From positions 83,762,001-83,826,000 of the forward strand of contig NC_092354.1 in assembly GCF_963676685.1 (NCBI RefSeq): a DNA stretch of 64,000 bases, given 5' to 3'. Origin of the DNA: Mytilus edulis. Lineage: Eukaryota. A program made the position numbers. The number at the start of each line of letters is the position of its first letter. Position 1 is the first letter of the stretch. Shown one piece after another: positions 15,001 through 53,800 of this stretch.

Positions 15001-18000
15001 TATATGCAAACATTTAAGACTAAAAAAAAATTATGATGACGATTGATATCTAACGATTATCGGCTGTATGTTATGTGGCTGGTGTATGGTCATATAATGC
15101 TGGTTTTGAATCAAGGGGGCAGTGAAATTCAACACCATAAACTTTACAATATTAATACTGTGTACCTTGGTAGGTCTGAATCGCTGTTGTGGATTTAACA
15201 AAGAAGATCAAAGTCATAAACTGTGAATGTATATATTTTAAAAAATAGAAATGCAAATTATCGCCCCATAACTAATGATAATGTTAGTCCATGAAATACG
15301 TTTTGATTTTATTTACTATAGAAGAAACTATTCACATTTGAATAAAGCAATACCCTTTTTGGTAAACACTTCGGAACAAATACTTCTCACTGTATTGTCT
15401 GAACGATGACCTATATTTATTTGATAGCTTAACTTTCAAATTGTTTGGTTTTATTTCAGGGCCAGACTCTATATGACCTTGCAACAAAAGAAAGAAGAAA
15501 ACAATTATGGCCTCCCTTAAGGTATATGTTCTGTTTAATTTAAATGGTTTATAGGTTTCCCAAATTAAAATATCACAAGAGATTTTTTACAGACATATAT
15601 CTAATCCTTCAGAAACATCACGGTTGGCAAAGACAATATTCACTATTGTTATGTGACTGCGTAGTATTATTTATCATAAATGTTATCGTCTTGATCATAC
15701 CAATAAACAATGTTTGACAATTAGCAATTCCAATGTCGTTGTCACGTCGCTACTGATTTATGAAATAATGTAAGGTTCTATTGTTTGTGGCGATACATAA
15801 CATTCTATTTTGATCAACTCCAGTAGTTAGAGATCATTGTTGTCCAGTCCGAACGAATGACTTTATTCTAAATATTAACTGGGAAATTTTACTAGATCGG
15901 TCAACAACCTTTCCCCCAAGGCTTAAGATAAAAACAATTATGACGGTATAAAACAATAAAAAATTTTTTTTTACAAAAAATGACTGCTGTATTGTTTTGT
16001 TTTTTCTTTTAACAGGTTAAATGGTGGAACATGGTAAGTTTTTTGTAAATTATTCATTTGTCATGTGATCTATCGTTGTCTTTAATTGCGCAGAAATATA
16101 CATGTTTGAGATTGATGATAGAAGCAAGTTACTATGTTAAACTCCATAAAACATTTAAGACAGAAAGCAATATAACGACAAGAACATTCGAAAACTAACT
16201 GAAATTACCATGGCAAAATACAAAAATAGACCAAACGGCACACAACATTATGCAAAATACAACATAGAACAACTAATGACTGATCAATTTTAAACAGATG
16301 GTTGTTTCAGGACCTCAAGAAAGGTAAGAAGATCATGATCCAAACATTGGACCCGTCGAGTTGATCATGTTAAAACAATTCGGTTAGTCAAAATCGAGGA
16401 ACGCTGGTTACGACAATTAGAAAAATATTCGTCATAATCCTGGAAGCTATTATATCAACTCATCATAGATACCAGGATAAAATTTTGTATATACGCCAGA
16501 CGCGCGTTTCGTCTACAAAAGACTCATCAGTGACGCTCGAATCCAAAACAGTTTAAAAGGCCAAATAAAATACGAAGTTGAAGAACATTGAGGACCAAAA
16601 TTCCTAAAAGTTGTGCCAAATACAGCTAAGGTAATCTATGCCTGAGGTAGAAAAGCCTTAGTATTTCAAAAATTATCAATTTTGTAAACATACAATTTAT
16701 AAATATAACCATATCAATGATAATTCATGTCTATTAAACACTGTTGTCTCCATTAATTTTAAGACACGTGATGTATCTGTTATCAAAATCAAGAATTTGA
16801 AAGTGTTAAGCATACACATTTCAACGTATTCGGATATTAAAGCATGAAAATGTACTATAATTTGTAAAGTCCACTACTCTACTCACAAATCTTATTGAAT
16901 TATATTCAGGTTTTCAAACATACCATTTCACTCAAGTACACTCAAAAACTCACTGCTGTAATTATAGGTTTGATTAATAACGTTTGTCAAACAGGTTTGT
17001 GTTCAGTAAGGAAATAAACTGGCTTTACTTTACTTTTAGAGACTACTTTTAGCTGCTGAAGATGGAAGGTTAAATGATGTGAAACGATTCATAAAAAAAG
17101 GAGCTGAGTTAGAATGTAGGGATCGAGGTGTAAGTAAAGTCACAGAAAACTTATATCTAATGATAGTATCATACATATGGTGTGGGAACTAACCAATAGA
17201 CGGGCTGTTCATTCTTTACACAAATCTATATTCTATATAGTTCTCATTTATTGACATAAATAGTTTTAATAAATTTATGATCCGTTTTAAAAATAATCTT
17301 TCACTTGTAGGTGGAAATCAAAACAAAATATTTTCAATTTTAATTTACAAAGCAATAATGGTTGTGCCATTGGTGTGGGTTATAAATACGAAGACTGATT
17401 ATTAAAACTACAAAATTTAGACAACACTAATTAAACAAAAACAAGAAAGATAGTGAAACCTATTTAAATATAAAATAATGGTAAACAAAATATTCATATA
17501 TATCATAATAAACAGTATGCACCAGACGCGCGTTTGTGTGGACAAAAAAAGCTGAATAGTGACATTCGACTAAATAACGAAAACAAACCAAATAAATAAC
17601 AATGAAGGAGAGGATTTATAAGAATAGAGGAAACACACTGCTAGTAAAACCAAACTGACTCAATACAAAACTAATAGAGGAATCGGAATCTTGATCGCAC
17701 ATATACTGAAACTCACATGTAATAGTAAATCCCTGACGATGAAATCTACAAAAGTATCCAAAGAAATAGAGAAAGGCAACTGGAATTGTACATACTGATG
17801 GTGAAAGTTCCATACATATATCCAAGAAAAATAGTAAAGAAATCTATAGCAATATAACCACAGAAATGGTGAAACGCACCTGGAATTGTACATTACTGAC
17901 GATGTAGTCTACAAAAATATATCCAACAGAAGTGATGACACCTACCTGGAATTGTACATAACTGATGGTGAAACTTCCATAAATATATTCAACAGAATGG

Positions 18001-50810: not shown

Positions 50811-53800
50811 CGCTCGGGGAATAATACTGTTGCGGGGTTAAACATGTTAGATAGTCAGTTAAACGATGTGATTGAAAACAATAGACTGAACAGATTATTA
50901 ACACTTTCAACTATCAATAGGGTCAAGAATCATTTTTGAAATGTTAAGTTCATGTAAGCGTTAATTTTGTTACAGTTATGAAATTTTAGTGATATTGATC
51001 CTAAAACATTAAACCGGTCATGATCACAGTTTGTGACTTATGTTTGCAGTTTTCTTGACATGCATTGTGACGTGTCATCGTATTCATTTTATATTAGAAA
51101 ACTATAGCAGTTATATTAGAAAAGTATCGCATTCATAAATTTTTGATATTAAAAATTCATCGCTTTGATATAAGACAAATATCGCATTGATATTTTAAAA
51201 TATAGCAGTATCGTTGACTAATAGGTGATTTTGGCGTAGCAAACAATTGAATTCATCTCAATTGCATTCCATTGAATTTGCTACATGATATTTATAGAAT
51301 GTGTACATTTACAAATGATAAATCGTGCATTTATGTTTCATTTATTCAATAATTCAATTTTCTCGTTTGAATACACCTTGCTTGTTATTACATAAAATAA
51401 CTCATGAAATTATACACCAGACGTATGTCGTGTTAAAAGATATCCTGTTTTAAGAAAAGAGTCATTAGTTTATATCGAGAAATCTGCCTTTCTTCGTACA
51501 AATGCTAAAATTCGTCTGAAATTTCCCACAATGCAACTCGTTGATATAAGACAATATCGCTCATTGATATAAGAAAAGTTTTTATCGTATCGCACCTTCC
51601 ATAGACTGGTGAAGTAAACTTTGTGAAACTTCTATTTTTTATTTACCAAATCTTTTTATCATAATATAATAATAAAATTACCTTTATGATAGCGTCTTTT
51701 TAATTAGCGATCATACCATATGAAGAGTTTAGAAGTATTAAAAGTAAGCTGTAACAGAATGTTAATTACCCTGACCATACGCGTACGGTCGGACCATACG
51801 CGTATGGTCGGACCATATGAGTATATACCCATATGGTCATGACCATACGCGTATGGTCCAAATACTCATATGATCCGGAACATTTATATTAAAGATTAAT
51901 ACAATACATGTTTAATGATTATGACCTGTCAGTGTCATCGCTTTTATAATATCAATACATAATTAAAAAAAAACACTTCATAAACATTATATGCATATAT
52001 ATTTAACTTGATATAACTTGATTATAACAAAAGTATTTATACCTGTTATATGTTTATATTATAGGATGGAATTACACCATTATTGACTGCTTGTCGACAT
52101 GGACACCTAGGTATCGTACGTTGTCTGATAGAACACGGCTGTGACATAGAGAAAAAAAACAAGGTAATGATAGATATCATCTCTTGTGTTTGATGATACT
52201 CATCTTTATATTGATTCAAAACAAATATTTTTATTATTCCAAGATGTTTTACAGTTATTACATACTTGTTACCTTGTTTAAGACAGAATATCATTTTACT
52301 TCACTTGTCTTACTTAAACATATATTAACGGTTTTATGGCATGTCCATTGAGGGAAGCTCTGTCTCCTCAAAACAAAGCATATTTTTGTAATTGTCATTT
52401 ATGTGGAATGTAAATACACTTTTGACTGGTAATTTATTTTGACAATATTGATTAATTTCATATACACTTCAATTTTATTTATAAATCATTTCACAACATT
52501 ATCCAGTTGTTGATACAGGTGTTGATGATTGTTATATATCGCTATTATAGGAAGGAATAACACCACTAACGCGTGCTGTCATCTTCGGACAACTTGAAGT
52601 CGTCCGTTACCTTGTAAGCGCTGGATGTGACAAAGAAGCCCGAACACAGGTCTTGTTTTATATTTTGTAATAACATGAGTTACTTTTAAGGACAACATAT
52701 CCTAGTTAGATTTGCATATAATTGGCATAGTTCGTATCTTCGGGTACTTCTCAATCAGATTGCAAAAGTCTTGTTTTGCATTCTGACAAAACTAATTAAT
52801 ATGTAAACATCTTTATTCAGAATCTATCAACTATGCAGATATAAAGTACAAGATCTTTCGATAAAATACATAAATGTTTGGCATGCCACAAAGCCAGGTT
52901 CAACCCACCATTTTTATCTTAAAATGCCCTGTTACAAGTCAGGGAAATAGCCATTGTTATATTATAGTTTATTTCTGTGAGTTTTAAATTTTAATGTTGT
53001 GTTTCTGTTGTGCCGTAGATATCCTCTTATATTTGATGTGTTTCCGTCAGTTTTAGTTTGTACCTCGGATTGTTATTTTTATAGATTTATGAATTTCAAA
53101 CATCATTATACTACTGTTGTCTTTATTTAGAATGATAGAAGTTGATATACATATATGTTGTATGTTTTATACTTTTCTGATAATTTGGTCCCGAAAGGAA
53201 AAATGTAAAAACAAATGTAAGAACGAGAAACCTACCGATCTATATAATGAAGACGCCGACGCCACTACCGACGACGGCATATAGCTTTTTTGTAACTTGA
53301 CTACATAACAGTCGTAGGCACAACACAAATCAAAAGTCCTTTATTATATTTTTAACAAATGAGACCACTTTAAATCTACTCGCGCTAAAGGTAAAGAGAA
53401 ATGGAAGGGGGGATTGTCGACTGAGCGACAATACATCAATTTTATAAAATAAGAATTTTCCGATTTTTTTAGCGTGTATATTCATTTGAACATATATGAA
53501 TTTTAAACTTTTATTTTCATTAAATGCCTTCTCCGATATACCACGCACTAATTGAAAAAAAAACCAACTTTTTGGAATATCTCCTTGGTTTTGATTGTTA
53601 TTGCCTGTTTCACTGGTGACGATGGATATGTTCCAGTTGTTCAAAACACAGTCCCGTCATCTTTTCCTCAAATGTAAAATACCAAATAAAACAAAATCAC
53701 TTGACCTGTACTTTCACGAATAACACGATGGGTGCCACACGTTGAGCAAAATCCGCCTACCTTTCCGAAGCACCCATGATCACCCCGATGGATTTATAAC

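What the first reader, a model, noticed from the sequence alone, without database searches (positions are those of the whole stretch)
15460..52649. Ankyrin-repeat gene assembled from interchangeable 99-nt phase-0 exon cassettes, caught in birth-and-death turnover
Seen: six intact 99-nt exons, each one ankyrin repeat and all phase 0/0, five sharing the donor GTAATG. They follow a 90-nt N-cap exon and an 18-nt micro-exon and are spread over 37 kb, and the ORF track misses most of them. The same locus holds a near-identical fresh duplicate (34051/35839), an older diverged duplicate (40145/52065) and two dead cassettes (39717, 41076). The residues after TPL vary strongly (ANAAYS, LTACLY, LLAAIY, LTACRH, TRAVIF) while the scaffold is conserved. 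Established: these helix-1 and hairpin positions form the ankyrin binding surface, and symmetric exons can be duplicated or skipped without frameshift. Inference: this could be a modular, rapidly diversifying binding or sensor protein whose specificity changes by exon copy number and alternative skipping. The C-terminal effector domain is outside the window.
Basis: partly seen in the sequence, partly recalled or inferred. Interest (0 to 1): 0.72.

Follow-up and report, generated by a model that had tools for sequence, protein, structure and literature searches.

The report
Ankyrin gene built from duplicated exons
This is a transposon-riddled animal gene in which each 99-base exon encodes one ankyrin repeat and exons have been copied, diverged and lost over time, which is a known way for repeat proteins to grow rather than a new mechanism.

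Summary
Six intact 99-nt exons (34051, 35839, 40145, 40887, 52065, 52551) each encode one 33-residue ankyrin repeat. All have AG/GT borders and phase 0/0, and five share the donor GTAATG. Each passes Pfam's Ank cutoff on its own. A 90-nt cap-like exon (17040-17129) and an ATG-bearing exon end (15507-15521) precede them.

Duplication history:
- The fresh duplicate is a 1,548-bp segment with 5 differences.
- A third, exon-less remnant of that segment lies just upstream.
- The older duplicate covers one exon plus its downstream intron, not two exons.
- One dead cassette (41076) is solid; the other (39717) is weak.
- Cassettes share a pre-acceptor intron motif, so exon and flanks were copied together.

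In the one informative pair (40145/52065), scaffold codons are constrained (pN 0.06, versus intron 0.16 and synonymous 0.29). Predicted binding-surface codons changed in 5-6 of 6 cases. That rate exceeds the intron rate (p about 0.02) but not the exon's own synonymous rate.

Alternative skipping, an effector domain and population variation are untested. No effector domain was found in the 11 kb downstream, and the last cassette may be a terminal exon.

Verdict: a new member of a known kind (one repeat per exon, grown by exon duplication). Organism unresolved; not human.

The parts
15460..15521 (+). 62-nt exon holding the likely start codon (ATG 15507-15509; MASLK, then donor GTATAT). It is in phase 0 with the next exon. 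A at -3 and G at +4.
   Evidence: Read directly from the sequence; donor counts. The start-codon assignment is inference.
17040..17129 (+). 90-nt cap-like partial ankyrin repeat (helix-loop part, no TPL hairpin), donor GTAAGT.
   Evidence: PDB ankyrin chains, best E 1.9e-18, aligned to the N-cap of 4qfv_A. No Pfam match.
17851..23075 (.). Satellite array of about 5.2 kb (102-nt period with higher-order units of about 407 nt) inside the 16.9-kb intron.
24412..30482 (+). LINE-type retrotransposon in the same intron. It has an ORF1-like part, an AP-endonuclease, a reverse transcriptase and zf-RVT. ORF2 is split over several frames.
   Evidence: best database relative 70% identical.
33071..33533 (.). 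Perfect 113-bp inverted repeat (33071-33183 / 33421-33533). It encloses an exon-less remnant (33241-33422) of the 1.55-kb duplicated unit.
   Evidence: The remnant equals 33730-33837 (95.4%) joined to 34930-35009 (97.5%). The missing 1.09 kb includes the cassette.
33544..35091 (+). Copy 1 of the 1,548-bp duplicated unit, holding cassette exon 34051-34149 and a dispersed repeat of about 300 bp (34606-34931).
35332..36878 (+). Copy 2 of the unit, holding cassette exon 35839-35937. It differs from copy 1 at 5 of 1,548 positions; the exons are identical.
39717..39791 (+). Possible dead cassette (NGRTQLFAAANRDNMEIGCYLVTLH, then a stop); no GT donor.
   Evidence: E 0.41. No Pfam hit. Weak.
40145..40243 (+). 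Cassette exon, paralogue of 52065 (82 of 99 nt identical), donor GTAATG.
40450..40731 (.). Repeat insertion of about 280 bp in the intron of copy A, absent from copy B (related to 6861-7139, inverted).
40887..40985 (+). Cassette exon, donor GTAATG. It matches 52551 only at the background level (62 of 99 nt).
41076..41211 (+). Dead cassette: conserved acceptor flank, disrupted first half, recognisable second half ending in a stop, no donor.
   Evidence: E 9.5e-7; flank.
52065..52163 (+). Cassette exon, paralogue of 40145. Homology runs from -45 nt through the intron to -31 nt of the next exon.
52551..52670 (+). Last cassette (99 nt to 52649) with a weak donor, CAG|GTCTTG. The frame reads on for six codons to TAA at 52668-52670, so it may be the terminal coding exon.
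   Evidence: PolyA-like signals at 53519 and 53685.

Best explanation
This is a multi-exon ankyrin-repeat gene of an AT-rich, non-human, unidentified animal genome.

Shown:
- An ATG-bearing exon and a cap-like half repeat are followed by six one-repeat exons of 99 nt, all phase 0, separated by introns swollen by a satellite, a LINE and other repeats.
- The array grew by duplication of a unit made of an exon plus its flanking intron. Cassettes share a pre-acceptor motif of about 35 nt, with a branch-point-like TTGAT near -29, and the unusual donor GTAATG.
- The newest copy is a 1.55-kb segment. The older event copied or converted one exon plus its downstream intron.
- Cassettes have also been lost, both by point decay and by deletion.
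- Since the older duplication, scaffold residues have been kept by purifying selection while predicted binding-surface residues changed freely.

Inferred:
- The exons are spliced in series into an ankyrin protein-binding domain of roughly seven repeats.
- The shared flank motif serves as homology for unequal recombination or conversion.
- Divergence of surface residues after duplication changes binding specificity.
For: Exons and splice borders. Family membership of each exon on its own. Cap exon.

All eight cassette-like hits lie on one strand in one 35-kb stretch, in a consistent order.

Shared acceptor-flank motif and GTAATG donor in cassettes, but not at exon 1 or the cap exon.

Fresh duplicate with 5 differences in 1,548 bp. 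Exon-less remnant.

Older duplicate, identity by segment: 77% (-45 to -1), 83% (exon), 83% and 88% (intron), then 60% (last 30 nt of intron), 63% (next exon) and 40% (downstream). Unrelated cassette pairs share 56-61 of 99 nt.

Selection in the 40145/52065 pair: scaffold pN 0.06 against intron 0.16 (p 0.03) and exon pS 0.29 (p 0.018); surface pN 0.45.

Internal duplication as the accepted route of ankyrin-repeat growth: PMC1553488 (abstract and passages) and PMC7314423 (passages).
Against: - There is no transcript evidence, so no splice junction is shown.
- No public protein resembles the gene closely. The best of 7 hits (16 candidates) to the exon-40145 frame was 61% identical. The cap-exon frame had 0 significant hits among 30 candidates.
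- Donors are weak: 5-6 of 9 matches to CAG|GTAAGT. The last one matches only at the exon's last three bases and the GT.
- Introns of 16.9 kb and 11 kb are full of repeats, and two cassettes are dead, which also fits a decaying locus.
- The selection tests rest on one pair of 33 codons.
Confidence: 0.6

Rival explanations
1. One reading: a modular sensor or binding protein that diversifies quickly. Specificity would be tuned by exon copy number and by alternative skipping of symmetric cassettes, coupled to an effector domain beyond the window.
For: - Every cassette is 99 nt and phase 0/0, so any one can be skipped or doubled without a frameshift.
- Cassette donors are weak, as is usual for skipped exons: 5-6 of 9 consensus matches (the link to skipping is general knowledge).
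- There has been very recent exon gain and also loss.
- Surface positions changed at 6 of 6 (recalled set) or 5 of 6 (PMC4308713 set) in the young pair. Their nucleotide rate, 8 of 18, exceeds the co-duplicated intron's 60 of 374 (p 0.004).
Against: - Surface pN (0.45) is not significantly above the exon's own pS (0.29; p 0.27).
- Whole-exon dN/dS is 0.12-0.65 for all 10 pairs.
- No effector domain was found among 66 ORFs of 48 aa or more in the 11 kb downstream; the only solid family match was DUF1759 (a weak IL12 match at E 0.0043 looks like chance).
- The last cassette may end the protein.
- No common docking site was found for competing RNA pairing: z from -1.8 to +0.5, with scattered positions.
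- There are no RNA or population data.
Confidence: 0.15
2. A decaying gene or gene fragment: the relic of an ankyrin gene being broken up by transposon and satellite insertions. The 'intact' cassettes would be open simply because they are short.
For: - Two dead cassettes and one deleted cassette.
- Huge repeat-filled introns.
- A defective last donor.
- No close protein in public sets.
- No downstream domain.
Against: - Scaffold codons of the 40145/52065 pair changed less than either neutral yardstick (p 0.03 and 0.018), and all 5 differences that are synonymous on their own fall in scaffold codons. That indicates both copies were translated and under selection for much of the time since duplication.
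- All six cassettes keep AG and GT and 11 invariant scaffold residues, while the two dead cassettes show what decay looks like at this locus.
Confidence: 0.17
3. The 99.7% duplicate (34051/35839) is an assembly artefact, with two haplotypes or a repeat laid side by side, rather than a real exon gain.
For: - Near-identity: 5 differences in 1,548 bp, 2 of them single-base indels.
- The surrounding structure is complex, with a perfect 113-bp inverted repeat.
- Tandem repeats are a known source of assembly error; the title of a paper saying so appears in the reference list of PMC7778985 (seen only as a citation).
Against: - There is no N gap anywhere in the window.
- The copies have distinct, unique flanks and a unique 240-bp spacer.
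- A third, more diverged (95-97%) and internally deleted copy shows that the unit has really been duplicated before.
Confidence: 0.1

Closest known systems
Canonical ankyrin genes (vertebrate ANK1/ANK2/ANK3 type) and other animal ankyrin-repeat genes with one repeat per exon
   Same: 33-residue repeats encoded by 99-nt symmetric exons, a structure long taken as a trace of exon duplication. This is my recollection of the ANK1 gene-structure literature and of Street, Rose & Barrick 2006, which I saw only as a citation in PMC5100051.
   Different: Only about seven repeats are seen here. No spectrin-binding, ZU5 or death domain lies in the window. No close sequence relative was found. The cassettes show very recent gain and loss.
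Large, internally similar ankyrin arrays of marine invertebrates described by Galpern et al. 2020 (PMC7314423)
   Same: Growth by copying repeats next to existing ones. Neighbouring repeats are unusually similar: 45-70% to the first cassette, with mean column identity 68%.
   Different: That work is at the protein level and reports no single characteristic unit size for the copied blocks (passages). Here the DNA shows single-exon units with defined breakpoints in the introns.
Designed ankyrin repeat proteins (DARPins, ANK-N5C libraries)
   Same: A fixed scaffold with a handful of variable surface positions on the beta-turn and first helix that make up the binding face (PMC9674349 and PMC4308713, passages). 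The natural young pair here differs at just those positions.
   Different: Those are synthetic libraries. Here the variation arose after a natural exon duplication, and binding has not been shown.
Mutually exclusive cassette-exon arrays (Dscam type)
   Same: A tandem array of homologous, symmetric exons with conserved intron sequence in front of each.
   Different: No shared docking site was found. Ankyrin repeats stack, so serial inclusion is the expected use. There is no RNA evidence.

Membership tests
Ankyrin repeat (Pfam PF00023 Ank) | A 33-residue unit that scores above the family's curated cutoff | tested here: met
   All 5 distinct cassette peptides scored 27.9-37.5 bits against a cutoff of 21.1, each scanned alone.
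Ankyrin repeat (Pfam PF00023 Ank) | Conserved G-x-TPL hairpin/helix start and G at the helix-helix turn | tested here: met
   Invariant columns G2, T4, P5, L6, A9, G13, V18, L21, G25 in the 5-cassette alignment.
Ankyrin repeat domain with capping repeat | An N-terminal partial repeat lacking the TPL hairpin | tested here: met
   Exon 17040-17129 aligns to helix-loop segments of PDB ankyrin chains, including N-cap residues 9-36 of 4qfv_A. No Pfam match.
One-repeat-per-exon ankyrin gene structure | Exon length equals repeat length (99 nt), with introns at the same position and phase in every repeat | tested here: met
   Six exons of 99 nt, all phase 0/0, with borders at the same repeat position. 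That this structure defines a known class is recalled, not taken from a paper I could read.
One-repeat-per-exon ankyrin gene structure | The exons are joined in a transcript | not testable with these tools
   No RNA data. No matching public protein model.
Ankyrin-plus-effector immune or signalling receptors (death, TIR, NACHT, ROC-COR, kinase) | An effector domain in the same gene | tested here: inconclusive
   Among 66 ORFs of 48 aa or more in 52650-64000 (the 39-bp array at 61290-62300 left out), the only solid family match was DUF1759; a weak IL12 match at E 0.0043 looks like chance. Short exons would be missed, and the gene may run beyond the window. Of the 10 database relatives with the highest score per repeat, 3 carry a kinase domain and 7 carry only ankyrin repeats.
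Diversifying (positively selected) binding-repeat genes | Nonsynonymous rate at surface codons above the neutral rate | tested here: inconclusive
   Surface pN is 0.45 against intron 0.16 (p 0.019), but against exon pS 0.29 the difference is not significant (p 0.27). One pair, 33 codons.
Dscam-type mutually exclusive exon clusters | Selector sequences before each variant exon that pair with one docking site | tested here: not met
   RNAduplex of the 60 nt before each of 7 cassettes against the 500 nt after the cap exon and after exon 1 gave z from -1.8 to +0.5 against 100 shuffles, at different target positions. Only those two candidate docking regions were tried.

The most novel reading that the evidence does not exclude
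The locus could be a germline-encoded recognition gene caught while it is diversifying. Cassette exons would be gained, converted and lost through a shared intronic recombination motif. Binding-surface codons would be driven apart by positive selection after each duplication. Weak GTAATG donors would allow variable inclusion. One gene would then yield a population-variable and isoform-variable panel of ankyrin binding surfaces, an ankyrin counterpart of the exon-cassette or repeat-cassette receptor diversity seen in other immune systems.
Probability: 0.1. Interest if true: 0.65.

Novelty: new member of a known kind. Interest (0 to 1): 0.33.

Why it matters
Repeat proteins are thought to grow by internal duplication, but breakpoints are rarely visible because most events are old. 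PMC1553488 states that finding recombination hotspots would need exact identification of the duplicated gene segments.

This locus preserves three stages at once: a duplicate with 5 differences in 1.5 kb, an older one-period duplicate or conversion tract with both breakpoints inside introns, and dead or deleted cassettes. That makes it a clear worked example.

It also allows a small internal test in which intron and exon were duplicated together. That test shows a constrained scaffold and freely changing surface positions.

It does not show a new mechanism. The functional claims (sensor role, splicing variation) remain speculation.

Tried and rejected
1. Two-exon block duplication (40145+40887 copied to 52065+52551), suggested by collinear BLAST hits. 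Rejected: the second exons share 62 of 99 nt, the same as unrelated cassettes (56-61 of 99), and identity drops 31 nt before the second exon.
2. Finding the gene's protein in public sets.
   - The first attempt failed because the 33-aa query was too short.
   - The frame holding exon 40145 found nothing above 61% identity.
   - The cap-exon frame found nothing.
3. Naming the organism.
   - The LINE ORF's best relative is 70% identical and unnamed. The named hits sit in metagenome bins labelled Thiolapillus and Thiodiazotropha at 47-50% identity. My reading that these are host contamination from bivalves is recalled knowledge and only a weak lead.
   - The Atlas gave mixed phyla.
   - Rfam gave 0 hits and the tRNA scan gave 0.
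4. Profile search with the five aligned cassettes: 238,578 hits, led by giant multi-repeat proteins, which is not diagnostic. Among 10 hits I picked by score per repeat, out of the 150 listed, domain content was inconsistent.
5. Effector domain downstream: none found.
6. Dscam-like docking/selector pairing: negative.
7. Papers not held: Paladin et al. 2020 and Mosavi et al. 2004.
8. The position set 2, 3, 5, 13, 14, 33 is recalled. I could not find it printed in the passages I read. The printed set I did find is 2, 3, 5, 10, 13, 33.
10. Not searched: the metagenome and viral contig collections (closed). The bacterial/archaeal genome collection was not used because it is irrelevant to an animal gene.
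11. Supplements were closed. The per-position binding-contact profile in the supplement of PMC4687027 might refine the surface set.

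
Full report
**What the window is.** The window is 64,000 bases at 32% G+C, with no N and a CpG observed/expected ratio of 0.84. 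It is eukaryotic and full of mobile elements and satellites:
- a LINE with AP-endonuclease, reverse transcriptase and zf-RVT at 26689-30482, with an ORF1-like part from 24412;
- a DUF1759-bearing element near 57.4-59.4 kb (I read it as retrotransposon gag-like from memory);
- a 102-nt-period satellite at 17851-23075;
- a 39-nt array at 61311-62057.

I do not take it for human. The organism could not be named.

**Checking the observation.** Each has an AG acceptor, a GT donor and a frame open from first to last base. Five share the donor GTAATG; the sixth has GTCTTG. The five distinct peptides each pass Pfam's Ank cutoff when scanned alone. An HMM built from them and run over all six frames found nothing else intact in the window. 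The only other hits were the disrupted cassette at 41076 (E 9.5e-7), the cap exon (E 0.17) and a weak hit at 39717 (E 0.41), all on the + strand.

The 90-nt exon 17040-17129 has no Pfam match, but it aligns to the helix-loop part of ankyrin repeats in solved structures, including an N-cap. I found no separate 18-nt micro-exon. The 62-nt exon 15460-15521 ends with ATG GCC TCC CTT AAG in phase with the cap exon, with A at -3 and G at +4.

**Anatomy of the duplications.**

*(a) The fresh duplicate.* The 1,548-bp unit at 33544-35091 recurs at 35332-36878 with three substitutions and two single-base indels. The exons are identical, and 240 bp of unique sequence separates the copies. This is a third copy of the unit that has lost 1.09 kb including its cassette. 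It sits inside a perfect 113-bp inverted repeat. So this unit has been copied at least twice and lost a cassette once.

*(b) The older duplicate.* BLAST suggested a two-exon block, but the segment-by-segment alignment rejects that. Identity is as follows:

| Segment (copy A vs copy B) | Identity |
|---|---|
| -45 to -1 before exon 40145/52065 | 77% |
| exon 40145/52065 | 83% |
| intron, two parts | 83% and 88% |
| last 30 nt of the intron | 60% |
| next exon (40887/52551) | 63% (62 of 99 nt) |
| downstream | 40% |

Copy A also carries a repeat insertion of about 280 bp in the intron. Unrelated cassette pairs share 56-61 of 99 nt. The younger event therefore covered exactly one period, an exon plus its downstream intron, either as a duplication or as a conversion tract.

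*(c) Shared flanks.* Cassettes share a motif of about 35 nt before the acceptor. A branch-point-like TTGAT or TTTAT sits near -29/-30 in five of the seven cassettes scanned: E34051, E40145, P41076, E52065 and E52551. The identical copy E35839 was not scanned separately. E40887 and P39717 have their best match at other positions. The cap exon and exon 1 lack the motif. Together with the shared, non-consensus GTAATG donor, this shows that the ancestral unit of duplication included intron flanks. That the motif also serves as recombination homology is my inference.

**Selection.** Over all 10 pairs of distinct cassettes, Nei-Gojobori dN/dS is 0.12-0.65, with synonymous sites near saturation except in the 40145/52065 pair (0.42). 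That pair can be compared with its co-duplicated intron, which has 60 mismatches in 374 aligned bases.

Its 10 amino-acid differences include all six positions of the design scheme I recall for DARPins (2, 3, 5, 13, 14, 33, which are exon positions 33, 1, 3, 11, 12, 31). They include five of the six positions printed in PMC4308713. I inferred the register from the C-cap sequence printed in that paper's section 12. Fisher tests against the remaining positions give 1.9e-4 and 0.005.

| Rate in the 40145/52065 pair | Value |
|---|---|
| surface codons, pN | 0.45 |
| scaffold codons, pN | 0.06 |
| whole exon, pS | 0.29 |
| co-duplicated intron | 0.16 |

- The scaffold is below both neutral yardsticks (p 0.03 and 0.018). 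This is the best evidence here that both copies have been translated and kept by selection.
- The surface rate is above the intron rate (p 0.019; 8 of 18 nt, binomial 0.004) but not above the exon's own synonymous rate (p 0.27; binomial 0.12).
- Diversifying selection is therefore suggested but not shown. Unconstrained change at the surface positions fits equally well.
- The variation after TPL among the five distinct cassettes is what any ankyrin protein shows. These are the high-entropy positions of natural repeats (PMC4308713, section 12).

**What it most likely is.** The locus is an ankyrin-repeat gene of about seven repeats, built and still being remodelled by exon duplication and loss. 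Internal duplication is the accepted route of ankyrin array growth (PMC1553488, abstract and passages; PMC7314423, passages). From memory, one 99-nt exon per repeat is known from canonical ankyrin genes and was analysed by Street, Rose and Barrick 2006, which I saw only as a citation.

Among 66 ORFs of 48 aa or more downstream, the only solid family match was DUF1759. The last cassette has a donor that matches the consensus only at the exon's last three bases and the GT, and it reads through to TAA 18 nt on, with polyA-like signals 0.85-1.0 kb further downstream. An ankyrin-only protein is as likely as a longer one.

The database relatives with the highest score per repeat are inconsistent: 3 of 10 carry a kinase domain and 7 of 10 carry only ankyrin repeats. 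A test for Dscam-like selector/docking pairing was negative.

**Limits.**
- There are no transcripts, population data or named relatives.
Searches were done exon by exon, so whole-protein homology and fold remain unchecked.
- The selection result rests on 33 codons in one pair.

**Verdict.** The locus is a new member of a known kind and a useful textbook-style example rather than a new mechanism.

Noticed in passing
window 17851-23075: A satellite of about 5.2 kb with a 102-nt basic period and higher-order units (about 407 nt; blocks about 2 kb apart are near-identical in translation). It lies inside the 16.9-kb intron between the cap exon and the first cassette. Its + strand frames are open for up to 133 codons but have no family match that I tested.
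   Followed up: partly
window 24412-30482: A LINE-type retrotransposon in the same orientation as the ankyrin gene. It has an ORF1-like coiled-coil part, an AP-endonuclease, a reverse transcriptase split over several frames, and zf-RVT. Its best public relative is only 70% identical. Named hits at 47-50% identity sit in metagenome bins labelled Thiolapillus and Thiodiazotropha, probably as host contamination of those bins.
   Followed up: partly
window 33071-33183 and 33421-33533: A perfect 113-bp inverted repeat with a 237-bp spacer that holds the exon-less remnant of the duplicated unit. A fold-back structure this exact suggests a recent replication-based rearrangement.
   Followed up: partly
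window 31507-31701, 34606-34931, 36394-36718, 38301-38587, 50107-50400, 53952-54194, 55684-55991: A dispersed repeat family of about 200-310 bp, in both orientations and 68-85% identical, present in several introns of the gene and inside the fresh duplicate. Probably a SINE or MITE. No Rfam or tRNA match in the window.
   Followed up: no
window 3960-6840: A run of + strand ORFs in shifting frames with no Pfam match for the three I scanned (4516-5064, 5233-5676, 6252-6668). By eye one part resembles a GIY-YIG-type nuclease motif, as in Penelope-like elements. Not tested.
   Followed up: no
window 57422-59433 (+) and 62822-63815 (-): ORFs resembling an LTR-retrotransposon gag (DUF1759, E 1.5e-26 for one of the 66 ORFs scanned) and zinc-knuckle-like ORFs on both strands downstream of the last cassette.
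   Followed up: partly
window 61311-62057 and 62054-62264: A 39-nt tandem array (19 copies, 93% matches) followed by an 83-nt array (2.5 copies). The 39-nt array gives long open frames on both strands that are repeat artefacts.
   Followed up: no
window 15473-15520: A short upstream ORF (ATG at 15473, 15 codons, out of frame) overlaps the proposed start codon at 15507 within the same exon.
   Followed up: no
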